From NCBI GenBank assembly GCA_000091205.1, contig AP006489.2: 64,000 nucleotides of DNA. One strand, 5' to 3'. Both the position numbers and the translations under genes were made by a program. Positions within the stretch are counted from its first letter, which is position 1. Each line of letters starts with the position of its first letter. This document shows positions 1-60,556 of the stretch, piece by piece. The stretch is from Cyanidioschyzon merolae. Lineage: Eukaryota. A model generated the notes under the pieces. It made no database searches, was not told where the DNA came from, and saw only the letters and a list, made by a program, of their open reading frames with translations.

Positions 1-700
1 GGAGTATACAAAGCCGGGTGGGCTCTTCTGCGAATGAACTTGTATTGCCGGAAGCAGCGCGCATTCGCGAACTTTTTCAATGAGTTGAGCGCCCTGAAAG
101 AGGATGAAAGTCAGAGGCTTGTAATAGCGTACGGAGCAGGGCGCTGGATGACCCAAAAAGGTACTACACCAGCTCCAACGACAAGAACGTACAAAGAGTG
201 TGCACGGCGTTTTGTCACAGTACCTGTAGATGAGTTCCGAATATCGTATACACACCATGAACTGGGACGTACACTTCAAAGGGTCGAGATGGAAAAGTGC
301 CAGGGGAGTCCTGAAGACATAGCAAAGTACGGACCGCTGCCGGAGGTGCAAATGGAGAGGAGGACAAAAGTGCGAGGGCTACTCGCATTCGTAAGTACAA
401 CCAACGACGGCAAGAAACGTATGGAGTTTGTGAACCGAGACTTTAACGCCGGCATCAATATCAGGAGATGCGCGGTGATGGAGAAAAGGCCTCCACAGTA
501 GACAAGAGAGAATTTTAAAGGACAACTGCTCAAAGTGGAACTATATGAGAAACAATTGGAACCAGTCGTAAGTGGCCGATCCAAGAAGACGGGGAGGCGT
601 CTGCACGTCAGTTCGAGACTGCTTGTCTAGGGCGGGTTTATCGCCACCACTGTGCACCGCTGGCGGCGGTCGACTTTTGGAAGGTATTCGCTAGAGGTGC
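1..700 (+). mobile_element. TnpB/Fanzor-like element, copy A (3' portion; truncated by window start)
   Basis: ORF 34-501 is ~85% aa-identical to ORF 55723-56451. C-terminal motif KRMEFVNRDFNAGINIRRC matches the TnpB/Fanzor RuvC-III consensus (RDxNAAxNI). Nucleotide homology to copy C continues past the TAG at 502-504, through an in-frame tail ending ...RRLHV..LV near 633, into ~60-100 bp of conserved non-coding sequence. Confidence 0.55.
34..501 (+). CDS. TnpB/Fanzor-like nuclease C-terminal domain ORF (copy A); premature TAG relative to copies B/C
   Basis: Homologous ORF; degenerate zinc-finger region (TRTYKECARRF, second Cys of the CxxC lost) followed by the RuvC-III-like NRDFNAGINI. The stop at 502 replaces GAA TGG of copy C. 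Confidence 0.5.
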   Translation: MNLYCRKQRAFANFFNELSALKEDESQRLVIAYGAGRWMTQKGTTPAPTTRTYKECARRFVTVPVDEFRISYTHHELGRTLQRVEMEKCQGSPEDIAKYGPLPEVQMERRTKVRGLLAFVSTTNDGKKRMEFVNRDFNAGINIRRCAVMEKRPPQ

Positions 701-26700: not shown

Positions 26701-26981
26701 GCGGAAGGAATTGAGGAGAAAGTCGAGCAGATTAATTTCTATATCATCTGACTCGGGTGCACGGCGTTCAGGATAGGGGCTACGAGAAGGGTGGTTCATC
26801 CACCAGCTGACGGCAGGGCGACTTGCAGTATACATGTAGAGACATTTTGGCCAGCTTCCAGTACCACCACAAAGGCTATCCGCGAATTTTTTGCTCAGTT
26901 TAAGGGATACATCTTTGTGTTGAATTTCTGCGAAAAAATCAAAAAAATACAAAATGACGCGCTGGTGTAGGGGTGCAGGAT
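23721..26981. repeat. left arm of a 3261-bp inverted repeat (x maps to 56833-x)
   Basis: Every ORF in this arm has an identical-sequence partner on the opposite strand in 29852-33112. Nucleotide spot checks at 24301-24360 and at both boundaries are identical. Confidence 0.85.
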
Positions 26982-27335
26982 ATCAGTCCCTATTGAACAA
27001 TATGGTTTGCATCGGAATTGAACACGTTCATCAGAAAATCTGCGCGCTGCGCGCGGAAATATCGGCGCCGTTTTGGAATTTTTTGTCTGCATACCACTTT
27101 ATCACTCCATTCTGCTGTCGAGGAATTCTGGTTCGTCAGCTTGGCAGACTTTTCCCTTTATGCTTAGATCTGAAGCCGTTTTGCAAATTTTTGCTATTTT
27201 TAATTAATTTCGTTTCTTCTGTTTTGTGAAAGAGGGATAAAGGAGTGATTCTTCTGAACAAAGAGCTTGGGTAAACTATTTGGGACTGACGCAGGTTCGA
27301 AAAGTAGAAGTACGATCTCATCTGCGCGGCTCTGG

Positions 27336-27538
27336 GCACCCGAGTCAGATGATATAGAAATTAATCTGCTCGACTTTCTCCTCAATTCCTTCCGCTGCAT
27401 ATGTGTTCGGAGCAGAACTTTCAATGAAGCCACAGGACGGGAAATTTACGCGCCGTTGATACGGATGGTTATGAAGAGACTCGGATAGACGATCGAAAAA
27501 GCGCGCCCTCAGCGAGGACCATCTTCCTAGTACTGAGA
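27336..27538 (+). repeat. third copy (~97.5% identical) of a 203-bp segment of the inverted-repeat arms (matches 30073-30277 directly and 26556-26760 inverted)
   Basis: Nucleotide alignment shows 5 mismatches in 203 nt. ORF 27267-27488 repeats the peptide of ORFs 26608-26952 and 29821-30225. Confidence 0.7.
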
Positions 27539-27949
27539 CAAGCGAGAACGATCACAAAATCAGCCTTAGTGTTCTGAAAATACAGATACTAACCATCAAA
27601 TAGAAATTCGATATCAATTTTCTTCCTACTTTACGGTAACCATTGAAAGGGGAAAGCATTTGCTTATTCTCAAAAGTTCGGTTTCCAGGCTGAAAGTCGC
27701 ACGAGCCTTCCGAGCCTGCCAAGCTTTCGCTCCACATGCCTCTTTATAGCCTGGTGCTCTAGCAAGGCTTGAACAGCTCGTCCGCTGTGCGGGATAGTCT
27801 GGGACTTCGCGTGCTCAGGCTGTGTCTGGGACTCGCTCTCGTCGCGATGCTACTCTGACACATTGCTTCGCGCTTTTGCTTGCAGTGCGCCTGTCTGCGC
27901 GGATTGCAGGCTCTCAGCAATATAATGAATCCCGATCCCGAGTCGGCGA

Positions 27950-28120
27950 AAAACGCAGCGAGCTTACGTCTTCGGTGGTACGGCAAAGCCGTCCTGTCTG
28001 CGTGCTGCATTCGCACCTGCGGGATAGGCGCTAATGCTGGTGCCCACGATAGACTCGGCGCAAGATAGAACGTTCGAAACGACCAGTATGTCCGAGGGGA
28101 AGGATGGGTAATAGAACTTG
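27950..28120. repeat. left arm of a diverged (~80%) inverted repeat inside the spacer
   Basis: Reverse complement aligns with 28383-28553 (for example ctggtcgtttcgaacg / ctggtcgtttcgtacg). Symmetry centre 28251.5, distinct from the large repeat's centre at 28416.5. Confidence 0.6.
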
Positions 28121-28382
28121 AAGATAAGATTACGCATGACTGACGCTTTCCCGAATGCCAATATCGACCCCGCAGTCTGGGATCCATGGTCTACACAAAC
28201 GCTCTCTCTGACAAAAATGCACATTTTCCGCGCTCACGGGTCGCGTGCGATACTCTTTCGAATTTTTTTCATTGACAAAACGTTTACTTAGGCCAGCGTT
28301 CTCCGATTATGCGCATTTTTCTTTTCTTACTTTTTGTGTCTTTTTCAGTGCGCGGTGAAGTATCCATCAAACGCCCTACCTC

Positions 28383-28553
28383 CAAGATACATTACCTATG
28401 CTTCATCTCGGATATTCTGGTCGTTTCGTACGCCCTATCGTGTGCCGAGCGTGCCGAAAGCGACAGCAGTAGCGCCTATAGCGCCAGTGCGGTCGCTGCA
28501 CGGAGACAGAACGGCGTTGCCGTACCGCAGAGGGCGTCGGCTCGAGGGATACT
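28383..28553. repeat. right arm of the diverged spacer inverted repeat
   Basis: See left arm. Overlapping ORFs 27759-28187 (-) and 28334-28684 (+) share WSFRT...DRTALPY peptides. Confidence 0.6.
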
Positions 28554-28598
28554 CTTTCGATGTGACACGCTTTCGACGCGGCTACAGCGCTGCCGCAA

Positions 28599-29660
28599 GT
28601 GATGTCGCTGACCTTGTTTCCAGAGGGTATACACCCACGGATTCCTGTGGAACCTCAGGACCTTGTATGCTTGCAGTGTCCTGAAGCTAACCTTGGCCGG
28701 TCGCTGCTTTATTCTCTTGCTGAACGGGCAGCCCTTTTCAGCTCGAACGGGTTGACGTACCACGTGTTCCTCATTGACGGCGACTGTCTCAGCGGCGTTG
28801 TCGGACAAGGCGAGTGTGCCAGAGAGGTACTATGGAAGACTTTGCTAGAAGCCAGAACAGAGGCGACTGTGGAGGAGCCTTTGGCCATAGATCGTGTTTC
28901 TATTGCAGTGTGCCACTCGTTTAAGGAAAGCCTTGCTTGTCTTCGAGGCATTCTGCATACTGTCGAGCAGTTGTCACGGGAATTTCCCGAAAACACGCGA
29001 ACGGTTCCTGAACGAAAGCTTTCACTTCGGACTACTGTATCGCCATTTCCGCATCATGTAAAAGCGAGTCAGAACTTCTCGCTTTTGTCGCTTCCGCATG
29101 AACGGCAAATTTCTCAGAACTTGGAAAGCTTTAATGAACCAAGCTCAACCTCTTTCAAAAGCTTTTCAGAGAGCGTTGCACTTACCGACAATTGCATAGT
29201 GAAAACACCGAGCACGCTGCCAGTATCGAATGTTCCTAGCCATGAATACGTGTTGATTCTTGTTGATGGTATCGGGAATTCTTCGGGTATGCTTGGAAGC
29301 GAATATTACAACACCTGCATCATTGATCTCAGAGAAGAGCTTCGTGATATTTTACGTCAGCTGCTCGCCAGTGCGTACGTTTCAATTGTTTTTCGCGATT
29401 CTCTTATGGGTACGAAAACTGAGAGCATTGCACGCGAGATTCCAATCGAGACAAGCGGGGCTGATGGAACGATAGAAAAAATGCTGCGCAATCTCCTGAC
29501 GAAATCAGTGTTGGTCGAACATTCTTCGATGCCGAACGAAACGTATAGATTATGCTTTCGACAATTCCATCCGTCTGGATCACTCCAGCTTGAGTGGGAA
29601 AGTTTTTTAGGCGAGCCTCTCCATCCCGCTTTTAAATGGCTTCGAAGCAAAGCAGCGTAA
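28599..29660 (+). CDS. hypothetical protein (353 aa) unique to the spacer between the large inverted-repeat arms
   Basis: Long ATG-initiated ORF with no recognisable domain. Confidence 0.35.
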   Translation: MMSLTLFPEGIHPRIPVEPQDLVCLQCPEANLGRSLLYSLAERAALFSSNGLTYHVFLIDGDCLSGVVGQGECAREVLWKTLLEARTEATVEEPLAIDRVSIAVCHSFKESLACLRGILHTVEQLSREFPENTRTVPERKLSLRTTVSPFPHHVKASQNFSLLSLPHERQISQNLESFNEPSSTSFKSFSESVALTDNCIVKTPSTLPVSNVPSHEYVLILVDGIGNSSGMLGSEYYNTCIIDLREELRDILRQLLASAYVSIVFRDSLMGTKTESIAREIPIETSGADGTIEKMLRNLLTKSVLVEHSSMPNETYRLCFRQFHPSGSLQLEWESFLGEPLHPAFKWLRSKAA

Positions 29661-29851
29661 GGAGCTGCGATTCCATGTGTGCGTGCTGATGCATGAATGA
29701 ATAGAGTTCCCTTTTTCCGATTTCTTCGGATATCACCTTCCGGATAGTGATGAAGCAATTTTTCGGCGAAAATGTTCGCTCATTTATAGCGCTGGTCTCA
29801 ACTGGATTAGTACCTACGGCTTGTCTGACTTTTCTTACGAAGTGCATTCAC

Positions 29852-32800
29852 ATCCTGCACCCCTACACCAGCGCGTCATTTTGTATTTTTTTGATTTTTT
29901 CGCAGAAATTCAACACAAAGATGTATCCCTTAAACTGAGCAAAAAATTCGCGGATAGCCTTTGTGGTGGTACTGGAAGCTGGCCAAAATGTCTCTACATG
30001 TATACTGCAAGTCGCCCTGCCGTCAGCTGGTGGATGAACCACCCTTCTCGTAGCCCCTATCCTGAACGCCGTGCACCCGAGTCAGATGATATAGAAATTA
30101 ATCTGCTCGACTTTCTCCTCAATTCCTTCCGCTGCATATGTGTTCAGAGCAGAACTTTCAATGAAGCCACAGGACGGGAAATTTACGCGCCGTTGATACG
30201 GTTGGTTATGAAGAGACTCGGATAGACGAGCGAAAAAGCGCGCCCCCAGCGAGGACCATCTTCCTAGTAATGAGACAAGCGAGAATGGCGACAACACCAA
30301 CCCATGCGGAAATGCAGTCGTGCGATCGCCCACATATCCCCAAATGGACTGGATCACTCAAAAGCTCTTTCTTCGTCGAAGCACTTGTGGTGCCTTCTTT
30401 CCACATTTTTCTGTCCTGTTCTGAGACGATCTCGATTTCCATAACCCAAAGGTGGTCAAGGGGTACGCATCTGTGATTTTCGTGGAGCTGCTCTTCGCAC
30501 TAGCCCATTCTCCATGGTTTAATCCAGTCGACTGTTTCTTCTCCGGTGCCAAATTCCATTCTTACGCTCACGGATCAATAGAGAAGTGGCTCGCGCCCAT
30601 GAGATCGTTGTTCGACAAGTCCCTCTTTGTTTTCTTCGCCATGAACTGCTTTGTTGCATCTCTTGCGGTTCGTGTGAGCGAGCGAGGAGGTGCGCCTCGG
30701 CTCATGCTTGTGCTTGCCACGGAAGCACTGACGAAAGTGTACTCGGAGCGAATTAGATACATAGATCCATCGAGCGGGCGAATGGCAGTGCTAGAATCCA
30801 CCTAGTTTGTCTGAATCCCGACGAAAAACCTGGATATGGAATATAGCGGCAACAGTTCTGCCGCCGCGCCAAGTCAAGGAGAAGGGCGAGGGACCACCAG
30901 ACAAGGAAGCGGAAGAGCCTTCAGAAAACGGGACGAAGTGGTACAGGAAGGAAAGCTGTCGGAGCGGAAATATCAGTCTGAAACCGTTGCCAAGGTCTCC
31001 CGACAAACACACTTCAACGGGGAGGCTCTTCCAAAACGCGAAATCCGGGACGTCGTGAAGGCTCGAGAAGCTCCTTACCCGAATAATGCGCGCCTAGCCT
31101 CTCTCGTCTTGAGCCGCCTGGTCAAGCAACGGTCTGCGGAAGTTCCGACATAGGACTCCATGGTGTCCACGTTCTTCTGGAGTTCCTCGATGAAGACTTC
31201 GCGCGACGACGCGCAACTGATGCTCTGAACGCAATATGCAGCACGGCCTGATTGTAGGACGAGCGGCTACACACATGAATCGCAGAATGCTTTGACGCGT
31301 CGTCGCTGTATGTGGGCAACGAAAGAAAGCTACCGCGCTGTGCCAAAAAGTATCAAACTATCGTCAAAAACCGAAGAAAATATGCGGCCACTCTCGAGCG
31401 CTTCATGAACCGCACCCTGTGGGCGATGTACCCTCAATTCACTGACCCAGGAAAGAGGGGACTGATGGATGAGTTTCTAGCGGTATCTTTATAGTTAAAA
31501 GGCGAGCTGCTCTGGGCGGACGAGATGGAGTTCGTAGCAAGCGCAGAAGGGAAAACGCAACGATCGCGAGAGCCGACTGTGGGGGCGCAGGCTCATCGTA
31601 TTGCTCGCGGGGTCGGACCGACGCACGACCCATAGAGGGGATGGTTGAAATGTGATGCCTAGCTTCCTTGCATACGAGCTACTGCGCTTTCTTCGAGGAA
31701 GCCCTCCATAGCAACGCAAACTCCCTCACTGTGTGCGAGCGCCTAAGACTCCTCAAGCGTCCGTTCGAAGTACTCCCATATTTCATATCAAGGCCTGCCA
31801 TGTTACCGTAGGCATATTCGTTTCATACTAGATAGTTTCCGCGGCGAGCTATGCCTCCTCTCTTCCGGTAATTACGAAGCTTTCGATCAGCTTCGTATGG
31901 AGCATTGCCGGAGCTCCCTCAGGGTTGCTTCGTTACGGGGAGGAAATGGAAAGAATTTTACAGGGGCGACGGAGACCTACGGGATACCAGGCTGCATGCA
32001 CGTTGTGAAACCCTGAGCTGAGCCGAGCAACAAGACTCGTTCTCAATCGTGCATGGTAGCTTACGGGACAGTCTTTGTGGCGGGCGTGGATCCCTGTATG
32101 AAGAACGCCGTAGCTTCCGCCGTGCCCCTAAATTGAAAGGACGCATGCAAACAGCTGTGCGGCAATCAGATGGAGCAACTCAGCTTCTCCGGGGCTCGGC
32201 ATTATCGCGAGCCGGGCATGGTCGACTCAACGAGGCGTACCGGCACGCGGAATGACGGCTTCAGGGCCCATCCCGACGTTCTGCGCGCCGGATTGACCAG
32301 AAACGGATCCCCCGTGCGCTTGATTCAGAGAGTGCCTGAGTGTCCAAATGTCGTATACGAACGAACATTGGCCGGGTACTTGAAACAGCGCTGGGGTCGC
32401 CAACATCTACCGATTTGTATATGCAGGAATCGTGAGAATATACTAGTTCAGTGAGTTAGAAAAGTAAATGGCCGACAAGTCGCGTGGTTTTGTGTTAGTC
32501 TATGGCGCTGGAGGTGCTGGGGCGCGTGCGGGCTGCTCTCCCTCTCCTTCGACGGGAGCGTACAACGCGTGCAGGAACCGATTAGTACGATTTACATCGA
32601 TGCGCTTTGGACGGCATAGATCCATCACGTGCGAAGGCGTAGGCTGCAGCATCTGGAGAAGGCGAGATTGAAACAGAGTCGGATGCCACGAGATCTTGGG
32701 CGGCAAGCTGACCGAACGTCGCATTGCGAGGCAATCGAAAGTGAGAAGCTCGTCATAGTGTGATATCGCCAGCAACAGTGCACGGAAGCACGTTCTCCGC

Positions 32801-33112
32801 CGAGCCGGACGGGCCAATCAACAACCCGAAATGTTTGCTGGTCCTGGAGCGTACAGCGAGCTTGTGTCGAGCGAGCTTTGGTGGGAGTATTGCAGTGCCC
32901 GTTGTGGGCATCGTGCTGAAATGGCGAGGACTTGCGATAGACCCAATTCAGTGGCCAAGAGGGGCGGCGCTGAAATCCCGCCTGGAGCAGGGCACTTGCA
33001 TGGCATGGTTCAGAGTCCGGGAAAGCTGGAGAGGCATATGGATACACTAGGAATGGTTTTCCTGGGTCGTTGGTGAAGGGTAATCGTGTTCTATTTTTTG
33101 TGATATTTCTGA
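29852..33112. repeat. right arm of the 3261-bp inverted repeat
   Basis: Reverse complement of 23721-26981. Outer boundary tcagaaatatcac; inner boundary gggtgcaggat. Confidence 0.85.
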
Positions 33113-34618
33113 TTGTATTATATTTCAACCAGGCGCTTGCGACTCGACAACTTACATAATCCTTTCGGTTCCCTGATAATGATTTAGAAAAAAATTTTTT
33201 GAGCCTTTTTGCAGCCCAGAAGATCGAAAAAGTGCTGCGTGCTCCAATCCACGGGATTCGTCCGAGCCTGGCAGAAGCATTGAACGGTATGAAACTTGCT
33301 CGCTTATCAGTAAAAACTTCTATACGGTCTCTCTGGGTGTGAGGAATTTTTTCTTTTGTTCGTTAGTGTGATGCTTTGCATGGTGTTTCGCCTTCAGCAC
33401 TTGGGAAGTGAGCTATGGTCGGGAACAGCGTTCGCAGCATCAGAATGAAACCGCGAATTCATTTAGTAATATTCTCTGCCACGTAGCTGTTCGTCAGGCG
33501 TTGCGAAAATAGGTCACCGGTGGAATTTGTGAATGTTGCATTTTCCGAGATGATTTTAGTCGCCGAATACAGCAGCCACTTGAAGACCTCATGACCCAAG
33601 GGTGTTAGAATCGATATCTTCAAGCAAGAAATTTACGCGCATGGTTTTTGCAGCGACTCTGTCTGCGTTTACCTTCCTGGTCGGATATTCCCGCTGGGAC
33701 TCTATCTATCATGAAGTGGTGCCTCTTGCATATTCTCAAGCCAAAGGGAAGGGGAGCATGTGAATAGTGGTGGTGCTTGGAATATGTTCAAGATTTCATC
33801 AGGTATTTTCCAGTGAACCCAGGTCACAGGGCCCACTATCTCATTTGCATACGGCCAGTTATCCTGGAAACACTCCGCCGCAGTTTCAATTTACAGGGTC
33901 CATGATTTGATCTATAGACTGCGAAAGCTCTGTGGCAACTTAAGCGAAGCACAACAAAACTCGGGAACCTAGTTATCGCTTATCTAATGAATTGACCACG
34001 ACGCGTCGCATGGACATCAAAGTTTGTTGCCTTCTGCAAAATGGAGCACTTGCTAAAGAGCTCCTGCAGCAATTGATACTCGGAAAGGTGAACAAAAACG
34101 CTGTGCGCTCCGCGCATCATAACTCGAGTTGCTAGGAAATGCGCATCTCAGCTGTTTACAATAGCATCACCGTATAGTTCGCTGAATCTATATTTCACTC
34201 ATCTTGGGATGAGAACAGCAGCCCCTTTCCTCAATTGTCGAGAGGCTAGGTCGGCAGATGTCGCCTGACAATTTCAAAATTACATGGTCTCAGAAATGAA
34301 CTGATATACCTTCCAGCAGTGCAACAGAGCCTTATCGGAGACTTCAAATCAAAGCGCACGCACAAGTGTGAGCACCTCTGCTTGGGTGCTCAGCTCGACA
34401 GGGCACCTTTGCGGTAGAGAGAGACTCAGCGCTGGCTGCAGTAAGAGCGAAAGCGTTCGGGATATATTACAGAACAAGACCTTCGCCCGGGCCTTCCGAT
34501 TTATTGCAAAGAAGATGGTCATGTTTTCGGGCTTACAACCATGTGCTGATTTCATTTGCAATTCAAAATCGTTGCACATGAAGAAGAGAGGTAAATGCGT
34601 TCATAAAGTTGATATCCA

Positions 34619-53498: not shown

Positions 53499-54323
53499 TC
53501 AGGTGCGCTCTTGGGCCAAGCATGAAGCTATATCGTCCGTTGAAAACTCCCGGCGGTCGTTCGATTCGCAAGCACCTTCCCTTATTCTATAATACGCAGT
53601 TGTTGTGTCCTCGTCCACGAATCCAAAAATTACGCTGGATTTTCGTGACCCGGCCTGGCGGTCTGTAGAATGTGTACTCGCGCTGGAGTCTGCGACGTGT
53701 CTGTTTTTAACAATACCTTCGATATGGGAGCTCATGCGCAAAGCTTGATCAAGATTGCTCAACTTGAGCATCGCATGCATAGGGACGGCAATCACGACTT
53801 CAGGCTCTCTACGAGACGTAATTATCCGTTCTTCAGTGCGAGTCTCCGACTGAGGTGACAGGGCGTTGATCGCTCGGCCAGAAGGCGGCGACCCGACAAT
53901 GCAGCAACGCACGTGAAAGCAGGCACGTTCACTCCCCAGAATGCACTGCGCAGAGTGTAGCTCCTGGACCATGGAGTCCTCCTCGAACAGAGGCCCTAAC
54001 AAGCCCGTGGGAAAGGTTGCCGAATCCGAATAAACCACTTCGACATTGGACCAACACCGAAGTTTTGTTAAATCTGCATATACTTGGTAAAGCGCAGCGT
54101 ACCAGCGCTCTGGAGGCGAGTCCACACAGCTCTTCGCAAGACGAATCGCATCGTGCCCAGCCAGGAAACTGCTCCGGTCTCGTTCCGCAACACTGTCGCT
54201 TTCCACCTCTACCATAAAGAAAAGCGCGCTCTCGCAGGTTCGAAATGCCGGACTTTCCAGCCCCAACGATTGACTCGGAAAACGTCCGATTCGATGAACC
54301 TGACTGCTTGGAGCCGCACGCAC
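53499..54323 (-). CDS. hypothetical protein
   Basis: 274-aa ORF immediately flanking the palindrome, no recognisable domain. Confidence 0.25.
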   Translation of the reverse strand: MRAAPSSQVHRIGRFPSQSLGLESPAFRTCESALFFMVEVESDSVAERDRSSFLAGHDAIRLAKSCVDSPPERWYAALYQVYADLTKLRCWSNVEVVYSDSATFPTGLLGPLFEEDSMVQELHSAQCILGSERACFHVRCCIVGSPPSGRAINALSPQSETRTEERIITSRREPEVVIAVPMHAMLKLSNLDQALRMSSHIEGIVKNRHVADSSASTHSTDRQAGSRKSSVIFGFVDEDTTTAYYRIREGACESNDRREFSTDDIASCLAQERT

Positions 54324-54332
54324 GCACGGACA

Positions 54333-55310
54333 AAACGCCTTTCAAAAGAAAAATGCTGTCGCCGGCCGTGTACAGGAGTGGCGAATGGTGCGCCCTAGAC
54401 TAGACATCTCCAACCGACGTGCAGACGCCTCCCAGTGCTTTTGGAGCGGCCACCTACTACTGCTTCCAATTGTTTCTCATATAGTTCGACTTTGAGAGGT
54501 TCTCTTACAAAGTTCTCTCTTGTCCATTCTGGAGGACTTTTCTCTAGTACCGCACATCTACTTTTATTGATAGGGGCGTTAAAGTCTCGATTCACAAACT
54601 TCATTCGTTTCTTGCCATCACTGGTTGTACTTACTAATGGAAGTAGTCCACGAACTTTCGCCCTCCTTTCCATTTGCTCTTCCGTTAGCGGTCCGTACTT
54701 TTTTATATCCTCAGGGCTCTGCTGACACTTTTCCATCTCGACCCTCTGAAGTGCACACCCCAGTTCATGGAGTGTATAGGACGTTCGGAACTCATCTACA
54801 GGTATCGTAGCGAAACGCCTTGCGCACTCCTTGTACGTTCTTGTTGACGGAGCTGGCGTAGTCCCTTTTTTGGACGCCCAGCGCCCTGCTCCGTTTGCTA
54901 CAACGAGCCTCTCACTCTCGTCCTTCTTGAGGGCGCTCAACTCATTGAAAAAGTTCGCGAACGCCCGCTGCTTTTCACAATACAAATTCATTCGCAAACG
55001 AGCCCACCGGGGCTTTGTGCATTCTTTCCAAAGGCTCTCGTCATGAGCAGCGTGAATTTTCATAACCTCTCGAAAAGCTTCAATGTCGGCTCCCCGGCTC
55101 GTCACATGGCTGATCGCTTCCAAATTCCCTTAACACCTGAATTCGATGTCTCACTTTTCTTCCTTGCATTCATTATACGGGATTCTCGATGGTATCTCGC
55201 TCATGAGAGCATCAACAGACTTATGTCTTTCTGACGTAAGTTACCATCAGTACCATCTTCCGCACGCTTGGGTGCTGCGACAGTTATGATATTTGTGTTC
55301 CAAGGGTCCA
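54333..55310 (-). mobile_element. TnpB/Fanzor-like element, copy B (left arm of the palindrome)
   Basis: Reverse complement of 55536-56513 at ~99.9% (one aa difference, T vs I, in RSKS[T/I]GRR). Confidence 0.6.
54395..55123 (-). CDS. TnpB/Fanzor-like nuclease C-terminal-domain protein (242 aa), copy B
   Basis: ...TRTYKECARRF...KKRMKFVNRDFNAPINKSRC. The RuvC-III-like motif carries A>P and I>K substitutions relative to the consensus. Confidence 0.55.
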   Translation of the reverse strand: MEAISHVTSRGADIEAFREVMKIHAAHDESLWKECTKPRWARLRMNLYCEKQRAFANFFNELSALKKDESERLVVANGAGRWASKKGTTPAPSTRTYKECARRFATIPVDEFRTSYTLHELGCALQRVEMEKCQQSPEDIKKYGPLTEEQMERRAKVRGLLPLVSTTSDGKKRMKFVNRDFNAPINKSRCAVLEKSPPEWTRENFVREPLKVELYEKQLEAVVGGRSKSTGRRLHVGWRCLV

Positions 55311-55356
55311 CACCAACGACAAAGTCCTTACCCTGCACCTCCTGCATCGCAGGATC

Positions 55357-55477
55357 CGCACTCTTCTCATCTACATGTTTCGCCTAGCCGTCTACAAGGT
55401 TGTACTTCTCCAACTCCTGCGTCGCAGGATCCGCATCCTTCTCATCTACATCCTTCGCCACGGGCGAAGCCGAGGAC
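55357..55477 (+). repeat. two 46-bp near-identical direct repeats (period 75 bp) at the centre of the palindrome loop
   Basis: ctcctgcatcgcaggatccgcactcttctcatctacatgtttcgcc (55357-55402) and ctcctgcgtcgcaggatccgcatccttctcatctacatccttcgcc (55432-55477). Confidence 0.8.
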
Positions 55478-55535
55478 GGACCAGGAGGCGGGCCCGACAG
55501 CGCTGGAGGTGCAGAAGAACGATTTCTCGTTGGCG

Positions 55536-56513
55536 TGGACTCTGGGAACACAAATATCATAACTGTCGCAGCACCCAAGCGTGCGGAAGATGGTACTGAT
55601 GGTAACTTACGTCAGAAAGACATAAGTCTGTTGATGCTCTCATGAGCGAGATACCATCGAGAATCCCGTATAATGAATGCAAGGAAGAAAAGTGAGACAT
55701 CGAATTCAGGTGTTAAGGGAATTTGGAAGCGATCAGCCATGTGACGAGCCGGGGAGCCGACATTGAAGCTTTTCGAGAGGTTATGAAAATTCACGCTGCT
55801 CATGACGAGAGCCTTTGGAAAGAATGCACAAAGCCCCGGTGGGCTCGTTTGCGAATGAATTTGTATTGTGAAAAGCAGCGGGCGTTCGCGAACTTTTTCA
55901 ATGAGTTGAGCGCCCTCAAGAAGGACGAGAGTGAGAGGCTCGTTGTAGCAAACGGAGCAGGGCGCTGGGCGTCCAAAAAAGGGACTACGCCAGCTCCGTC
56001 AACAAGAACGTACAAGGAGTGCGCAAGGCGTTTCGCTACGATACCTGTAGATGAGTTCCGAACGTCCTATACACTCCATGAACTGGGGTGTGCACTTCAG
56101 AGGGTCGAGATGGAAAAGTGTCAGCAGAGCCCTGAGGATATAAAAAAGTACGGACCGCTAACGGAAGAGCAAATGGAAAGGAGGGCGAAAGTTCGTGGAC
56201 TACTTCCATTAGTAAGTACAACCAGTGATGGCAAGAAACGAATGAAGTTTGTGAATCGAGACTTTAACGCCCCTATCAATAAAAGTAGATGTGCGGTACT
56301 AGAGAAAAGTCCTCCAGAATGGACAAGAGAGAACTTTGTAAGAGAACCTCTCAAAGTCGAACTATATGAGAAACAATTGGAAGCAGTAGTAGGTGGCCGC
56401 TCCAAAAGCATTGGGAGGCGTCTGCACGTCGGTTGGAGATGTCTAGTCTAGGGCGCACCATTCGCCACTCCTGTACACGGCCGGCGACAGCATTTTTCTT
56501 TTGAAAGGCGTTT
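55536..56513 (+). mobile_element. TnpB/Fanzor-like element, copy C (right arm of the palindrome)
   Basis: Inverted copy of 54333-55310. ORF 55723-56451, then a conserved ~60-bp 3' tail ending 55 bp upstream of the ATG of the LRR gene. Confidence 0.6.
55723..56451 (+). CDS. TnpB/Fanzor-like nuclease C-terminal-domain protein (242 aa), copy C
   Basis: ATG-initiated, and ~85% aa-identical to copy A with many synonymous nucleotide differences. Confidence 0.55.
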   Translation: MEAISHVTSRGADIEAFREVMKIHAAHDESLWKECTKPRWARLRMNLYCEKQRAFANFFNELSALKKDESERLVVANGAGRWASKKGTTPAPSTRTYKECARRFATIPVDEFRTSYTLHELGCALQRVEMEKCQQSPEDIKKYGPLTEEQMERRAKVRGLLPLVSTTSDGKKRMKFVNRDFNAPINKSRCAVLEKSPPEWTRENFVREPLKVELYEKQLEAVVGGRSKSIGRRLHVGWRCLV

Positions 56514-56566
56514 GTTTTCGGGGTGTTTCCGGGCTCAACAAGAAACGCTCGTTCCCATTTAGATGC

Positions 56567-59500
56567 ATGTCGTTGCATAAATCGGACTCGAACCAGTTGC
56601 TGGTCAGTCTGGTAGTGGAGCACGCGAAACGGGCGACACCACCTCCCGAGGAGAGTGGAATTCTCTTCGACGAGAAGGGTTCGCAAATAAGCGAGCACCA
56701 TGCTGCACCCGCATTGGAAGGAAGCTCTGCAACGTGGCCTTTTGTGCCCGCAAGGCCTAGAGAAGTTTCGTCGGGAAGCGATAATGCTTGTGAAAACGGC
56801 CGCGCTCTCAGAAGATTGCACCGGACGCCTTCACCGGAAGTAACTGGCTCTGGTTCACCGACTAGTCACGCCAACGTAGTCGGAACCTGTTTCGTCACCG
56901 GGTTTGTGGTGGAAAAAGACGACTCTGGAACGGACGTAACCGGATGCGGAGAGTCACGTGCGTCCGAGAAAACATCAGGTCGTCCTTTTCGTCGTGAGGT
57001 TACAGCTGCAGACTCCAGGCTGAACCTGAGCGGGGAGCACTTGGCCTGTGTGTCGCTTGAGCAGCTTCGCTCTCTACCTTCGCTAGCCGCGCTGAATGAA
57101 ATATCTCTTGCATCGAATAGTTTACGAAGTGTCGACTTGCGTCCACTTGCTTCCTGCCGCTCGCTGCAGGTCCTGTTACTGAACGATAACTTACTGGAAC
57201 GCATTGACTTGACGCCATTGGCAAGTTGCTCGCAGCTTGAACGACTCTGGCTGCATAGGAACAAGCTGAAACATATCGATCTGAGTCCGCTGGCCATAAG
57301 CGGAAGTGCGTTGAGGTCGCTGTACCTCAGCCGCAACGAACTGCAGGAGATCAGTCTTGCTCCTCTTGAAAAGTGCTCGAAGCTTCGCGCTTTGCAGTTA
57401 GAGGGCAACCCAAACCTCAAAGAAATAGACGTCACCCCACTGTTTGCGTGTAGAGAGTTGAGCAGTTTCGAAGCCCCCCCTCAGGCTCGGCTTATAGTTC
57501 GTGAACTGGCCGCACTGGAAGTGCAGCGCCGCAGTTATCAACAAGATTGCAACTCACTGGCCAATGTAGAGTCCAGTGAGAGCGCTCGCACCGCTGCGAT
57601 CATGCCGAGCAAACTTGTGTTACCAAAGGTATTCCGCCGCAGAGGTATTGTCTTACACTGGATCAGAGAGGCATTGCCTGACGCGAACTTGAGGGATTTA
57701 ACTGGGCAACGATCTTTGAAAGAGAACAGTGTGAATGCGGAGCTGCAGGATGCCGAACGCGGCGAGGGAATTCAGACGAACGCTTCTATGAATATAATTG
57801 CACCTGCATCCGAGGAAGCACTCTCGTCCGTGGCCGAGTTGCAAACGGGCCCCACGGCATCGAGGAACTTGGAGTCAGTGCAAGAGGACAAAACGCCTCT
57901 TTGCGCTCTGATTGTCGGGATGACCACGCATCGCCGAATATCAACTTGTCGGTTACTTGAGCAGTCGGGGACGTTGAGGGTCCTCCAATCTCCTTCAGCC
58001 GCAGCTGCACTGGATGCTTACATCAGCGCACCAGACGGGATTGACTTGATTCTGATGGAACCTGCTGAATATGAGGTCTTTTCCGAACAAGCGCAGGCAG
58101 CCTCCATTGAGATCAGCGTGCCGGTGGTGGCGGTTGGTCCTCCGGAGTTTGAACGCTCTGGCGTTTTTCGGCGGTGTATTGCCATAGGTGCAAGGGGTTT
58201 CATATCTTTTCCGTTGGATAATCGTGATGCACAGGCCTTGACGGAGGTTGCCCGCAGCTTTCGCGCATCTCGCCAAACTTCTGCTTCGCAGGTTTTGAAG
58301 GAATCCAGTGTATCCGAGTTGCTTTTGCCTACACAAGAGGTTCGAGCGGATTCGACAAGTGTTAGCCGCGATCTCTCGCCGATGAGCATGACGAACGGAA
58401 GCGATGCATCCAAGTATGGGGCAGGTATAGAGCCTGACTCCAAATGGGTCCCGTCCTGGTGGCAAAACTCCGATTCCATTCGCAAGGAAGGAAACTCCAG
58501 TCCGGCAGCCGTTTCCGACCGGATGGACACGTTTCTTTCGAAATCGGAAGGTGTCGAGGATATAGCAGAGGAGTCTTCTACGTACCGTTTTATCCAGCGC
58601 GCTGGAATTGGACACCTCCGCTCGGGGAGTCCTATATGCCGCAGTGGTTCCGAGAGCTCGCAATTTGCTTGTGAAAGAGCTGAATGGGCCAGAGTTGAGG
58701 CTATTTTCGCGCATCGAGATAAGCGACCGAGTCGAGAGCCTTGCTTCCAACTGCAGTTCATGCAACATTGCTCGAATCCTGCCACGCTTTTGATACCGAC
58801 CGATGGTTACCATTCTGCTGGCCTGGAGAGATTTGCTGATATCGCAGCAGTCTGTCGACTACCAAAAACCAGTGCTACTGTGCTGTTTCTACGTGTGCTT
58901 TCCCACCAGGATAAGCTCGCTAACAGCGGTACAAGCTCGATATCCAATGCTTTAACGCGATCAGCGAGCGAGTCGGTGTCTTCGAATTGCTGGTTGCGAA
59001 ACATCCATGTAGATGCCTTTTATCACTTTTACCGTTGCAAGCTCGCACCGATCCGATCACCGCTTGAGCGCTTCTATAATGTAATTGCATCTTCATGGCC
59101 TGGAAGTGACATACACGATTCATCTTCGTCCCTGTATGCGGAAGGAAAAATACGCAGACTGAAAGAATCCAGGGCAAGGTACGTTTCGAGATACACAATA
59201 ACCCTTTTGATTCAGGAGCTGGTTTATCGGAAGCTTTGTGTCGGGAGAAACGCTTCTGGCGTTGCAGTCCCGTATCATGCAGCGAAAGCAAATCAGGGAC
59301 AGATGAGATCTGCCCGGTATTCGTATCAGGGGAAGAGCTTTCTGTCTTCGTCAATCAATCAGAGCGGAAGCGCATCAGCGATGGAGTCCGCACACTTCTC
59401 CAGCAAGAACGGAGAAGCTGCGAGGAATGCTTTCCTTGCCTTTCGGGATGAGGTTTGTGAGGTTCTCCTTACCGCCTCCGTCGCAAGTGCATGTGTCTGG

Positions 59501-60556
59501 TTTCATCTAGGTGGCGGAAATCGAAACTATGTTCCGCTATCGATTCTGCGAAAGGTGCGCTTTGCTGAGGCAATCTTCGCGGCTGAACGCGGCATCATTG
59601 TGGATAGTTTGATGGAAATGCTTACCGGGAATGGCATCGCGCTGGTTGCCCAGAAGGAGCTCGAGACCGTCTGGAACTATAACGCACGCACTGGGACTGC
59701 AACATCGGAGCAACTAGCGTCGCGAGATGCTCCGAGCTTTGAATGCTCGATTCCTTCTGTCTCTGGATTGTCTTCCTCGTTCCCAGAACAGCAAAGCGAC
59801 GGCGCTGTCACGCAGGCGCCTTCAGGGGCTACCGAGTCCAGGGAGCAGATAGCGGGTGCAATACGTTCTTCATTTCTTCCGGACACATTTGAGTTTTCGA
59901 AATGGTGCAGAAAATTCTGTATTTCGCGAGAGGCTGCCGTATCCTACTTCCTGGATCGGGGTTCGCTCGTTCCCAAGGCAGTAGAGCAAGTGTTGAATCG
60001 TTTCCGTGGATTATCGCTCGTACAGAAACCCGCGTCCAGTGAGCACAGCGCTGCAACGCCTCAGCTCCAGGACGAGAAGACGGTTCCCGAGGATCAGAAT
60101 CTGGCACCGTTCAGCAAGTTAGGAAACGCTTCCGTAGGTGACTCTCTCAGTCCGTCGGCTTTCGTGCACCTCTTCCTGGCGTTGTGTGATCCTGGCAACG
60201 AGAAAGCACTGCACATCTTTTTTGATATTATGGATCTCGACATGGATGGGTTTATCTCAGCGGCAGATGTTGCGTACTTTTATCGAGAAAAATGCGAGAT
60301 CGCGTTTCGAGAGGGCCTAGTGCTCGCGTCTGCAAATAATCTATGGGCGCAGTTGGTAGATATGTGCAGAACGTCGGCAAATGATCCCAAACTTGAATCC
60401 AAGGGCATTACACTGAAAATGCTTCGGGATATCGGAGAGAGGCGTCGCTCCAGTTTCATTCGCAATGTGCTTTTCAAGGACGATGGCATGGCACTGGTAG
60501 ATATTCAACAGACTTTGCGGTTGGAAAACAGTCTCGCGCTCCTGAGCCAACCGTAG
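56567..60556 (+). CDS. large leucine-rich-repeat protein with a C-terminal EF-hand-like motif
   Basis: Tandem LRRs (LxxLxLxxNxL: LRSVDLRPLASCRSLQVLLLNDNLLERIDLTPL...). EF-hand-like loop DIMDLDMDGFISAADVAYFY near the C-terminus. The ORF is open from 56501, so the start at ATG 56567 (MSLHKSD) is inferred. Confidence 0.65.
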   Translation: MSLHKSDSNQLLVSLVVEHAKRATPPPEESGILFDEKGSQISEHHAAPALEGSSATWPFVPARPREVSSGSDNACENGRALRRLHRTPSPEVTGSGSPTSHANVVGTCFVTGFVVEKDDSGTDVTGCGESRASEKTSGRPFRREVTAADSRLNLSGEHLACVSLEQLRSLPSLAALNEISLASNSLRSVDLRPLASCRSLQVLLLNDNLLERIDLTPLASCSQLERLWLHRNKLKHIDLSPLAISGSALRSLYLSRNELQEISLAPLEKCSKLRALQLEGNPNLKEIDVTPLFACRELSSFEAPPQARLIVRELAALEVQRRSYQQDCNSLANVESSESARTAAIMPSKLVLPKVFRRRGIVLHWIREALPDANLRDLTGQRSLKENSVNAELQDAERGEGIQTNASMNIIAPASEEALSSVAELQTGPTASRNLESVQEDKTPLCALIVGMTTHRRISTCRLLEQSGTLRVLQSPSAAAALDAYISAPDGIDLILMEPAEYEVFSEQAQAASIEISVPVVAVGPPEFERSGVFRRCIAIGARGFISFPLDNRDAQALTEVARSFRASRQTSASQVLKESSVSELLLPTQEVRADSTSVSRDLSPMSMTNGSDASKYGAGIEPDSKWVPSWWQNSDSIRKEGNSSPAAVSDRMDTFLSKSEGVEDIAEESSTYRFIQRAGIGHLRSGSPICRSGSESSQFACERAEWARVEAIFAHRDKRPSREPCFQLQFMQHCSNPATLLIPTDGYHSAGLERFADIAAVCRLPKTSATVLFLRVLSHQDKLANSGTSSISNALTRSASESVSSNCWLRNIHVDAFYHFYRCKLAPIRSPLERFYNVIASSWPGSDIHDSSSSLYAEGKIRRLKESRARYVSRYTITLLIQELVYRKLCVGRNASGVAVPYHAAKANQGQMRSARYSYQGKSFLSSSINQSGSASAMESAHFSSKNGEAARNAFLAFRDEVCEVLLTASVASACVWFHLGGGNRNYVPLSILRKVRFAEAIFAAERGIIVDSLMEMLTGNGIALVAQKELETVWNYNARTGTATSEQLASRDAPSFECSIPSVSGLSSSFPEQQSDGAVTQAPSGATESREQIAGAIRSSFLPDTFEFSKWCRKFCISREAAVSYFLDRGSLVPKAVEQVLNRFRGLSLVQKPASSEHSAATPQLQDEKTVPEDQNLAPFSKLGNASVGDSLSPSAFVHLFLALCDPGNEKALHIFFDIMDLDMDGFISAADVAYFYREKCEIAFREGLVLASANNLWAQLVDMCRTSANDPKLESKGITLKMLRDIGERRRSSFIRNVLFKDDGMALVDIQQTLRLENSLALLSQP

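What the first reader, a model, noticed from the sequence alone, without database searches (positions are those of the whole stretch)
54333..56513. 2.2-kb near-perfect palindrome made of two inverted TnpB/Fanzor-like copies around a loop with 2x46-bp tandem repeats
Copies B (-) and C (+) are reverse complements of each other at ~99.9% over 978-bp arms (symmetry x <-> 110846-x). They are separated by a 225-bp unique loop (55311-55535) that contains two 46-bp direct repeats spaced 75 bp apart. Such a structure can extrude a large hairpin/cruciform, is recombinogenic, and suggests recent inverted duplication or a foldback-type transposon end. Both ORFs carry an altered RuvC-III motif (NRDFNAPINK; A>P and I>K), so this pair may be catalytically compromised even though the ORFs are intact. 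This is compatible with a domesticated or RNA-binding-only derivative.
Basis: seen in the sequence. Interest (0 to 1): 0.75.

Follow-up and report, generated by a model that had tools for sequence, protein, structure and literature searches.

The report
Head-to-head dead Fanzor transposon pair
The 2.2-kb palindrome is real, but it is two broken, 5'-truncated copies of a known red-alga transposon gene (Fanzor1, family CMe-1A) fused head to head between two diverging host genes and made almost identical by gene conversion, so it is a tidy example of a known process and not a new system.

Summary
The window is Cyanidioschyzon merolae 10D chromosome 7. The palindrome is real. Arms 54333-55301 and 55545-56513 (969 nt) differ at one base, and four independent metagenome assemblies carry the same centre or arm-flank joins. 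The arms are the 3' third of the Fanzor1 element already described in this alga (CMe-1A, Bao & Jurka 2013). A profile of full-length relatives hits solved Fanzor1 structures (E 6e-19), and a model of one relative has the Fanzor1 fold.

Neither copy is intact. About 400 N-terminal residues are missing, and each arm has an in-frame TGA and a frameshift.

The "unique loop" is element sequence. It holds copy B's two 75-bp coding repeat units and copy C's one diverged unit, and the two copies are joined directly.

Both outer arm ends fall at the family's 3' terminus (to within a few bases). Each lies 53-117 nt upstream of a co-oriented host gene, the position this family usually takes (20 of 26 loci).

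A diverged haplotype (L088) keeps the same junction with arms only 82% alike. The 10D arm is a block mosaic of those two arms (p=0.0014). The near-identity therefore looks like secondary gene conversion. A fresh fold-back duplication, a foldback transposon and a domesticated gene are not supported.

The parts
54333..55485 (-). Copy B: a 5'-truncated Fanzor1 (CMe-1A-type) element that keeps its 3' terminus. It corresponds to about residues 395-699 of the full-length relative P0122. The inner end is uncertain by about +/-10 nt.
   Evidence: tblastn of P0005 and P0122; DNA alignment with family copies; blastn to L006 and L003
55486..56513 (+). Copy C: a second 5'-truncated Fanzor1 element in the opposite orientation. 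It is fused directly to the 5' end of copy B with no recognisable host DNA between them.
54333..55301 (-). Near-perfect arm B. It is 969 nt long and matches arm C at 968 positions.
55545..56513 (+). Near-perfect arm C. Its one difference from arm B, 56411 T, is private to strain 10D; L001, L002 and L090 carry C there.
55302..55544 (.). Centre of the palindrome, where the two copies are homologous but diverged (about 73% over C 55482-55544 versus B 55302-55365). This is the boundary of the homogenised tract.
55333..55459 (-). The tool coordinates are 55333-55384 and 55408-55459. Each unit contains a short palindromic core, TCCTGCxxCGCAGGA.
   Evidence: (minus-strand ORF 55384-55578 reads PVAKDVDEKDADPATQELEKYNLVDG)
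55482..55530 (+). The single, diverged repeat unit of copy C (EAGPTALEVQKNDF), carrying a 1-nt deletion at about 55526.
55643..55645 (+). In-frame TGA in copy C at a position where the family has an Arg codon. The mirror codon in copy B is at 55201-55203. The B' arm of haplotype L088 has CGA at this position.
55716..55723 (+). Frameshift in copy C between ...NSGVKG and LEAISHVTSRGAD. The mirror position in copy B is about 55123-55130.
55384..55386 (-). TAG stop inside copy B's repeat unit. It is absent from haplotype L088.
55723..56451 (+). Open 242-codon remnant of copy C (the RuvC-II/III and TNB part). The mirror ORF in copy B is at 54395-55123 (-). The alternative RuvC-II Glu codon is at 56053-56055, and the RuvC-III motif NRDFNAPINK is at 56254-56283.
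55538..55540 (+). RuvC-I Asp codon of copy C (VGVDSGNTN). In copy B it is at 55306-55308 (VGVDPWNTN).
56491..56513 (+). Family 3' terminus of copy C: hairpin-capable CATTTTTC-TTTT-GAAAGGCG followed by the end ...GGCGT|TT. The mirror in copy B is at 54333-54355. Homology among 34 distinct family copies stops here, to within a few bases.
53499..54215 (-). Left-flank host gene (Sen15 domain). Its ATG at 54215 lies 117 nt downstream of copy B's 3' end, and the gene has the same orientation as copy B.
56567..60556 (+). Right-flank host gene CMG083C (LRR + EF-hand). Its ATG lies 53 nt downstream of copy C's 3' end, and the gene has the same orientation as copy C.
1..667 (+). Copy A: a third family copy, cut by the window edge, 81-84% identical to the arms. 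Its 3' end lies about 135 nt upstream of the co-oriented Top3 gene (ATG at 803).

Best explanation
The feature is a transposon relic with no sign of a working gene.

Proposed history:
1. Two copies of the old C. merolae Fanzor1 element CMe-1A came to lie upstream of two divergently transcribed host genes, a Sen15-like gene and CMG083C. Each copy has its 3' end pointing at its gene, which is the position and orientation this family usually takes. The copies therefore face each other head to head. (Inferred.)
2. Both copies are 5'-truncated and are now fused directly inside the family's 75-bp coding-repeat region. Together they fill 93% of the intergenic space. (Shown.)
3. They began as ordinary diverged family members, about 80% alike. 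Arm-to-arm gene conversion between the inverted copies then overwrote 969 bp. The tract runs from the RuvC-I motif out to the element's 3' end, where homology stops. (Inferred from a sharp identity boundary and from a mosaic comparison with a diverged haplotype.)
4. The result is a 99.9% palindrome in strain 10D and its close relatives. Both arms now share the same nonsense codon and frameshift, so neither can make a Fanzor protein. (Shown.)

The 'loop' is simply the unconverted, diverged 5' ends of the two copies.
For: Host identity: CMG083C matches at 100%.

Family identity:
- The arm ORF has 204 homologues at 60-80% identity.
- The arm is 47% identical to the 699-aa relative P0122 (E 5e-59).
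- A profile of full-length relatives hits solved Fanzor1 chains 9cf0 (E 6e-19) and 8gkh (E 4e-11).
- An AlphaFold model of P0122 (pLDDT 85) matches SpuFz, GtFz and PpFz at E 1e-16 to 1e-15, TM 0.55-0.73.
- The motifs fit the rearranged Fanzor active site: VVAYGAG in place of the canonical RuvC-II Glu, and Glu in VDEFRTS (PMC10530073).
- The description fits CMe-1A: C. merolae host, about 150 copies, about 80% identity, about 3 kb, no TIRs (PMC3627910).

Pseudogene status.

The outer arm ends coincide, to within a few bases, with the family 3' terminus defined from 34 distinct copies.

The loop is element sequence and the inner ends are about 73% alike, with each copy matching the consensus at different sites.

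Position rule: the element's 3' end lies 16-340 nt upstream of a co-oriented ORF in 20 of 26 distinct loci (p=0.0047), and in all three copies in the window.

Conversion:
- Haplotype L088 has the same junction and loop, but its two arms differ at 21 of 120 inner sites.
- The 10D arm matches L088's B' arm at 8 sites against 3 for C' in 55545-55603, and matches C' at 9 of 9 sites in 55604-55664 (Fisher p=0.0014).
- Divergence between L088 and 10D is mosaic: dense, then 1 mismatch in 412 nt, then dense again.
- The differences from the ENA contigs L001/L002 cluster in short patches (55752-55770 in L002 only; 56097-56151 in both), and at the latter four sites both 10D arms carry the same state.

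Context:
- The syntenic site in a distant cyanidiophyte has no element.
- Unhomogenised head-to-head pairs exist elsewhere: L036 at 73-86% and L077 at 96%.
- A second palindrome in the same window has 3268-nt arms at 99.94%.
Against: - L088 is a single 1081-nt metagenome contig and covers only 120 nt of its B' arm. Its history may include ectopic conversions of its own. At 4 of 120 sites, 10D differs from both L088 arms.
- Conversion between copies only about 80% alike is expected to be inefficient, so the first event needs explaining.
- Direct fusion of two independent insertions, with no host DNA between them and truncation points only about 100 nt apart in element coordinates, also needs an extra step. 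A central deletion would do; this is inferred, not shown.
- The other ~150 CMe-1A copies in the 10D genome could not be examined. A near-identical donor copy elsewhere is therefore not excluded.
- The Repbase CMe-1A consensus was not available for a direct comparison.
Confidence: 0.65

Rival explanations
1. A single-step inverted duplication. One 5'-truncated copy was duplicated in inverted orientation. This could have happened by fold-back priming or template switching at a break or stalled fork. Alternatively it happened during transposition, with both ends of a target break copying the same donor inward from its 3' end and the two products being joined in the middle. On this view the centre was remodelled later, and the diverged arms in L088 arose by ectopic conversion from other family copies.
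For: - The arms share every disabling lesion and are 99.9% identical, while the nearest other known copy is at most 91% identical.
- The two copies are fused with no host DNA between them.
- 5'-truncated, 3'-intact copies recur in this family and in Chlamydomonas Fanzor1 elements, where copying from the 3' end was proposed (PMC3627910).
- Both outer ends sit at the element terminus, as a transposition-coupled event would give.
Against: - The innermost ~60 nt are only ~73% alike. Copy C matches the family consensus where B deviates, and the reverse, which random decay of a duplicate would not produce.
- L088's arms are only 82% alike, and the 10D arm is a block mosaic of them. Under this model that pattern needs several independent ectopic conversions that happen to mimic a mosaic.
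- A plain fold-back duplication would not be expected to end at or within a few bases of the element's 3' terminus.
Confidence: 0.2
2. A functional element. The arms are kept identical because they do something. They might encode a truncated RuvC-only or RNA-binding Fanzor derivative. Alternatively they might serve as the bidirectional promoter and 5' UTR for the two flanking genes.
For: - The 242-codon frames remain open in both arms, and D/E/D is retained.
- The palindrome fills 93% of the space between two divergent start codons, so the promoters must lie largely inside it.
- The family shows a strong bias for sitting just upstream of co-oriented genes.
Against: - The open frame lacks RuvC-I, WED and REC. 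It starts after a frameshift and a stop, and its first ATG gives a 222-aa fragment.
- Changes at columns that are at least 90% conserved (A>P, I>K, Y>N in VVAYGAG, loss of Zn-finger cysteines) point to decay.
- L088 differs by about 16% over part of the same frame.
- No expression data were available. A promoter role does not require the arms to be identical.
Confidence: 0.08
3. An assembly artefact: a fold-back chimera or a collapsed repeat in the reference.
For: Palindromes are a classic product of chimeric reads and amplification. Short-read contigs break at the arm boundaries.
Against: - Four independent metagenome assemblies from two archives reproduce the joins from loop to both arms, and from each arm to its own flank.
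- Two of these contigs contain the inverted repeat internally (130 and 191 nt). The contig breaks fall exactly where a real palindrome with arms longer than k would break a de Bruijn graph.
- A diverged haplotype has the same junction.
Confidence: 0.02

Closest known systems
Fanzor1 element CMe-1A of Cyanidioschyzon merolae (Bao & Jurka 2013, PMC3627910)
   Same: The host is the same. The protein type is Fanzor1. Copies are about 80% identical to one another, full-length relatives are about 3 kb, and there are no TIRs. A separate module of about 620 bp sits at the 5' end of full-length relatives, matching the description of TE-N2_CMe.
   Different: The paper describes dispersed single copies. 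It does not mention a head-to-head fused pair, arm homogenisation, the 75-bp coding repeat, or the position just upstream of genes. The two copies here are truncated and dead.
Solved Fanzor1 nucleases (SpuFz1 8gkh; PpFz 9cf0; GtFz 9cer)
   Same: Full-length relatives of the arms share the fold (TM 0.55-0.73). They also share the GxDPG, DEFRTS and NRDxNA motifs, with the relocated RuvC-II glutamate.
   Different: The window copies keep only the C-terminal ~300 residues and are interrupted. The C. merolae clade has also lost the CxxC...CxxC cysteines of the TNB zinc finger. No omega-RNA has been demonstrated.
Gene-conversion-maintained palindromes (e.g. primate Y-chromosome ampliconic palindromes)
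   Same: Inverted arms are more than 99.9% identical around a non-palindromic spacer. Arm-to-arm identity exceeds the divergence seen between haplotypes. There is a sharp arm/spacer boundary and evidence of conversion tracts.
   Different: This palindrome is about a thousand times smaller. It is built from two transposon fragments, not from genes, in a haploid unicellular alga. There is no evidence that selection maintains it.
Foldback (FB-type) transposons
   Same: Long inverted arms with internal short tandem repeats near the centre.
   Different: The arms here are coding-sequence copies of a non-TIR element with its ordinary 3' ends facing outward. The tandem repeats are in-frame codons. 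There is no target-site duplication. Other family members are single, non-palindromic copies.

Membership tests
Fanzor1 (eukaryotic TnpB homologue) | Sequence homology to experimentally characterised Fanzor1 proteins | tested here: met
   The arm is linked to P0122 at 47% identity (E 5e-59). Profile A3, with P0122 as first member, hits PpFz 9cf0 at E 6e-19 and SpuFz 8gkh at E 4e-11. The arm ORF alone and the shallow profile A1 gave no Pfam or PDB hit.
Fanzor1 (eukaryotic TnpB homologue) | WED-REC-RuvC-TNB fold | tested here: met
   Met for the full-length relative P0122: pLDDT 84.9, and the top seven Foldseek PDB hits are all Fanzor1 at E 1e-16 to 1e-15. It is not met by the window copies themselves, which hold only the RuvC/TNB part.
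Fanzor1 (eukaryotic TnpB homologue) | RuvC D-E-D with the canonical RuvC-II Glu replaced by Gly/Pro and an alternative Glu about 45 residues downstream (PMC10530073) | tested here: met
   The family has GADPGNTN, then VVAYGAG (Gly at the canonical site), then VDEFRTS 37 residues on, then NRDFNAAIN. The arms keep D, E and D but carry N for Y, P for A and K for I.
Fanzor1 (eukaryotic TnpB homologue) | Intact full-length ORF | tested here: not met
   Both copies lack about 400 N-terminal residues and carry a TGA plus a frameshift. Copy B also has a TAG, and copy C a 1-nt deletion.
Fanzor1 (eukaryotic TnpB homologue) | Conserved structured non-coding RNA (omega/fRNA) at the 3' end, reading into the flank | tested here: inconclusive
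   The last ~90 nt are conserved, and three hairpins pair in 88% of cells against 36-57% when the partners are slid. Only 3 compensatory cells were found, and the RNAalifold consensus is weak at -3.2 kcal/mol. No Rfam match. No RNA data were available.
CMe-1A (Repbase family of C. merolae) | Host, copy divergence of about 80%, about 3 kb, no TIRs, 5' module shared with TE-N2_CMe | tested here: met
   The host is confirmed. Copies are 78-84% alike. The Fanzor part plus the 5' module spans about 3.1 kb in L006. A 620-bp module lies 5' of most full-length copies.
CMe-1A (Repbase family of C. merolae) | Direct match to the Repbase consensus sequence | not testable with these tools
Foldback transposon | Long terminal inverted repeats as the element's own ends, with a target-site duplication, found across family members | tested here: not met
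   Other family members are single and asymmetric. The arms end at the ordinary 3' terminus. The flanks CACGGACAAA (left) and GTTTTCGGGG (right) are not a duplication.
Gene-conversion-maintained palindrome | Arm-to-arm identity above that of orthologous or haplotype comparisons, with mosaic conversion tracts | tested here: met
   The arms differ at 1 of 969 sites. Flank divergence from the ENA strain is 0.41%. The L088 haplotype has arms 82% alike, and the 10D arm is a block mosaic of them (p=0.0014). This rests on one short contig.

The most novel reading that the evidence does not exclude
CMe-1A Fanzor1 elements may not be scattered at random. Their 3' end, where a Fanzor guide RNA would read into the flanking DNA, sits a few tens of bases upstream of a co-oriented host start codon in about three quarters of loci. 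This would mean one of two things. The element may home to promoter-proximal sites. Alternatively, only copies that supply promoter or 5'-UTR function may survive. On this reading the palindrome is a transposon-built bidirectional promoter for the Sen15-like gene and CMG083C, whose two halves are kept in step by gene conversion.
Probability: 0.15. Interest if true: 0.55.

Novelty: new member of a known kind. Interest (0 to 1): 0.3.

Why it matters
The transposon family and the process (gene conversion between inverted repeats) are both known, so the main value is a clean explanation that removes the more exciting readings of foldback element and domesticated nuclease.

Three smaller points may interest specialists:
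- The locus gives a compact natural case in which an unhomogenised haplotype and a homogenised haplotype of the same palindrome can be compared, in a haploid alga that is tractable by homologous recombination.
- The family's 3' ends sit just upstream of co-oriented genes, which bears on how Fanzor1 elements choose or survive at their sites.
- The same 64-kb window holds a second, larger near-perfect palindrome. Inverted-repeat homogenisation may therefore be a general feature of this very compact genome.

Tried and rejected
- Pfam on the arm ORFs and on six longer homologues gave no significant hit. The precomputed PF26935/DUF8286 tag on P0025 was not reproduced.
- A profile of close homologues (A1) against PDB sequences gave nothing.
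- AlphaFold on that shallow alignment failed (pLDDT 38). The model was not used for any search.
- Rfam and tRNA scans of the window were empty.
- RNAalifold on 25 element 3' ends gave only a weak consensus. I therefore make no omega-RNA claim.
- Exact-sequence look-ups of two window proteins (the 824-aa ABC1 kinase and CMG083C) found no record.
- A literature search for C. merolae palindromes found nothing relevant.
- I looked for the outer part of the L088 lineage's B' arm among the 78-81% homologues and could not identify it.
- I considered whether copy C's inner repeat unit could be copy B's unit 1 brought next to RuvC-I by unit loss. It is about 65-70% alike to both B units, so I rejected this.
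- I considered a nested insertion of C into B. No 5' remainder of B lies beyond C, so I rejected this.
Full report
**1. Observation**

The inverted repeat is real and sits at the stated coordinates. The repeat finder gives arms 54333-55323 and 55523-56513, 991 nt, with 199 nt between them. A base-by-base comparison finds five mismatches. Four lie in the innermost 22 nt (55302, 55305, 55312, 55320) and one is at 54435/56411. The near-perfect palindrome is therefore 969 nt per arm (54333-55301 and 55545-56513) with a single difference. No similarity continues beyond the outer ends.

The loop holds a 52-nt direct repeat (55333-55384 and 55408-55459), 87% identical, with a period of 75. A 999-nt single strand centred on the symmetry point folds into one long hairpin at -569.5 kcal/mol, against -137 +/- 8 for shuffles.

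**2. Not an artefact**

The right-flank ORF is 100% identical to CMG083C of Cyanidioschyzon merolae 10D. The window is therefore from chromosome 7 of that reference genome. Four independent short-read metagenome contigs reproduce the structure:
- L002 (ENA) equals window 55172-56513. It contains 130 nt of arm B, the whole loop and all of arm C, and it stops at the outer arm end.
- L089 (JGI) equals window 55735-50395 at 99.9%. It contains 213 nt of arm C, the loop, all of arm B and the left flank.
- L001 (ENA) and L090 (JGI) start at 55545, where the perfect repeat begins, and run into CMG083C.

These are exactly the breaks a true palindrome with arms longer than the k-mer would cause. L090's arm is identical to 10D's arm B, so the single arm difference (56411 T) is private to 10D's arm C.

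**3. What the arms are**

The 242-codon ORF has 204 homologues, mostly in hot-spring metagenomes, at 60-80% identity. Longer homologues show four motifs:
- GADPGNTNIITIA
- VVAYGAGRW
- IPVDEFRTSYTHHELGC
- VNRDFNAAINIRRC

They also carry one to several 25-residue acidic repeats just upstream of the first motif.

Pfam and a shallow profile found nothing. An exhaustive profile search recovered 1319 relatives, many of them 580-740 aa long. Several results then place the family:
- A profile of 35 full-length relatives hits the solved Fanzor1 proteins of Parasitella (9cf0, E 6e-19) and Spizellomyces (8gkh, E 4e-11).
- Seven of the 35 relatives hit the Cas12f1-like TNB domain.
- An AlphaFold model of the closest full-length relative, P0122 (pLDDT 84.9), has Fanzor1 structures as its top seven PDB matches (E 1e-16 to 1e-15, TM 0.55-0.73). 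Cas12f and Fanzor2 score far behind.
- The arm is 47% identical to P0122.

The motif pattern also fits. Gly stands at the canonical RuvC-II position and Glu is in DEFRTS, which is the rearranged Fanzor active site described by Jiang et al. (PMC10530073).

Bao & Jurka (PMC3627910) described this family in this alga. They reported CMe-1A as about 150 copies, about 80% identical to consensus, about 3 kb long, with no TIRs, no determinable TSDs, and a 5' 635-bp part shared with TE-N2_CMe. Everything I see matches that description. I could not compare directly with the Repbase consensus.

**4. The copies are dead fragments**

Each arm covers only about residues 400-699 of a roughly 700-aa protein. 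In both arms an Arg codon has become TGA (55643-55645 and its mirror 55201-55203). A frameshift at about 55716-55723 separates the RuvC-I piece from the open 242 codons. Copy B also has a TAG in a repeat unit (55384-55386), and copy C has a 1-nt deletion at about 55526.

The catalytic Asp, Glu and Asp codons survive.

**5. The loop is element sequence, not unique DNA**

Read on the minus strand, 55485-55302 encodes ...PGPSSASPV-AKDVDEKDADPATQELEKYNLVDG*-AKHVDEKSADPAMQEVQGKDFVVGVDPWNTN. This is copy B's pre-repeat segment plus two 75-bp repeat units. Read on the plus strand, 55482-55544 encodes EAGPTALEVQKNDF(-1)LVGVDSGNTN, which is copy C's single unit.

The two copies abut at about 55485 with no recognisable host DNA between them. 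Over the innermost ~60 nt they are only about 73% alike. Copy C matches the family consensus where B deviates, and the reverse. Identity then jumps to 968 of 969.

**6. The outer ends are the element's own 3' ends**

I aligned 34 distinct family copies with their flanks. Homology stops after ...CGTTTTTCTTTTGAAAGGCGT, and a loosely conserved TTGYTG motif often follows. Both arms stop there, to within a few bases. This rules out an arbitrary segmental inverted duplication. No target-site duplication flanks the 2.2-kb unit.

The last ~90 nt can form three small hairpins that are well conserved as pairings, but they have almost no compensatory changes. I therefore make no RNA claim.

**7. Why head to head**

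Copy B's 3' end lies 117 nt upstream of the ATG of a co-oriented Sen15-domain gene (the start as called in L089). Copy C's 3' end lies 53 nt upstream of the ATG of co-oriented CMG083C. Copy A's 3' end, at the window edge, lies about 135 nt upstream of co-oriented Top3.

Across 26 distinct loci with enough flank, the nearest downstream ORF of at least 150 aa is co-oriented in 20, usually starting 16-340 nt away (binomial p=0.0047). Two such insertions upstream of two diverging genes are necessarily head to head.

The syntenic intergenic region in a distant cyanidiophyte has the same gene order (DUF760, Ndc80, ERCC1, Sen15, LRR, TRAPP). It is 1128 nt long and has no element.

**8. Why nearly identical**

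Family copies are normally about 80% alike, and the nearest other known copy is at most 91%. The decisive comparison is L088, a 1081-nt ENA contig colinear with window 55182-56261. It has the same B-loop-C junction but is only 90.9% identical overall.
- Its mismatches are mosaic. They are dense in 55182-55603, there is one in 55604-56015, and they are dense again in 56016-56257.
- Its own two arms differ at 21 of the 120 inner positions.
- At the 20 sites where they differ and 10D matches one of them, the 10D arm follows B' at 8 sites against 3 for C' in 55545-55603. It follows C' at 9 of 9 sites in 55604-55664 (Fisher p=0.0014).
- L088's B' arm lacks both the TGA and the TAG.

So a haplotype exists in which this head-to-head pair is still two diverged copies, and the 10D arm is a block mosaic of them. 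That is the signature of gene conversion.

Other observations agree:
- The differences between 10D and the ENA contigs L001/L002 cluster in short patches (55752-55770 in L002 only; 56097-56151 in both). At the latter four sites both 10D arms carry the same state.
- Unhomogenised or partly homogenised head-to-head pairs occur in related genomes: L036 at 73-86%, and L077 at 96% with its arm cut by the contig end.

The caveats are that L088 is one short contig, that it covers only 120 nt of B', and that 4 of 120 sites differ from both L088 arms.

**9. Verdict**

This is a known transposon family in its known host, arranged as a fused head-to-head pair of pseudogene fragments and homogenised by gene conversion. 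The foldback-transposon, fresh fold-back duplication and domesticated-nuclease readings are not supported.

What is new is modest:
- the palindromic pair itself;
- the evidence for its secondary homogenisation;
- the family's habit of sitting just upstream of co-oriented genes;
- a second, larger near-perfect palindrome in the same window (arms 23714-26981 and 29852-33119, 3268 nt, 99.94%).

Noticed in passing
window 23714-33119: There is a second, larger palindrome. Its arms are 23714-26981 and 29852-33119 (3268 nt, 99.94% identical), with the only two mismatches at the outer end. The 2870-nt spacer holds TE-N2-like modules and a 353-codon ORF (28599-29660, no Pfam hit). The arms contain no ORF longer than 140 codons.
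   Followed up: partly
window 27610-28547: There are solo copies of the ~620-bp module that lies 5' of full-length Fanzor elements in related genomes (probably TE-N2_CMe). The module appears as 27859-28191 (+) and 28547-28375 (-), about 70-74% alike, and these too form an inverted pair.
   Followed up: partly
loci L006-L086 (e.g. L006 9136, L049 6068, L077 5280); window 667, 54333, 56513: The 3' end of the Fanzor1 element lies 16-340 nt upstream of a co-oriented ORF of at least 150 aa in 20 of 26 distinct loci (p=0.0047), and in all three copies in the window. This suggests insertion or survival just upstream of host start codons in sense orientation.
   Followed up: partly
L006 5980-6603 versus L015 22-653, L017 187-814, L046 4174-4769 and many others: The ~620-bp module immediately 5' of the Fanzor part has one orientation in L006, L036 and L038, and the opposite orientation in most other loci. 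It is either an invertible segment or a separate element that repeatedly lands next to the Fanzor 5' end.
   Followed up: no
window 55302-55485; family proteins P0013, P0034, P0037, P0089: A 75-bp (25-codon) acidic coding minisatellite (consensus VTKDEDEKEADPATQEVEDNDFVV) lies just before RuvC-I. Its copy number varies from 1 to at least 5. It falls in a low-confidence linker of the P0122 model (residues 394-407).
   Followed up: partly
family alignment A1/A3; window 56056-56110: The C. merolae-type clade has lost the CxxC...CxxC cysteines of the TNB zinc finger. It reads TSYTHHELGCTLQ...VRGLLALVSTT where other Fanzor1 proteins have TSxxCPxC...C..C.
   Followed up: no
34 element 3' flanks, e.g. 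window 56512-56520: The first six or so bases after the conserved terminus ...GAAAGGCGT are often TTGYTG. Several unrelated loci share a longer TTGTTTYCAGGGGT. This could be the true end of a subfamily or a target-site preference.
   Followed up: no
L077 1-272 and 3062-3333 (also L076): This is another head-to-head Fanzor pair in a related genome. Its arms are 96% identical, far above the family norm of about 80%, and one arm is cut by the contig end. This suggests that homogenised inverted pairs recur.
   Followed up: partly
window 26531-26760, 27336-27565, 30073-30302: A 230-nt repeat occurs in three copies (95-98% identical), two of them inside the arms of the large palindrome and one in its spacer. 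Its identity is unknown.
   Followed up: no
window 55752-55770 and 56097-56151: The differences between 10D and the near-identical ENA contigs cluster in two short patches: 3 sites within 19 nt (L002 only) and 4 sites within 55 nt (L001 and L002). These look like short conversion tracts from other family copies.
   Followed up: partly
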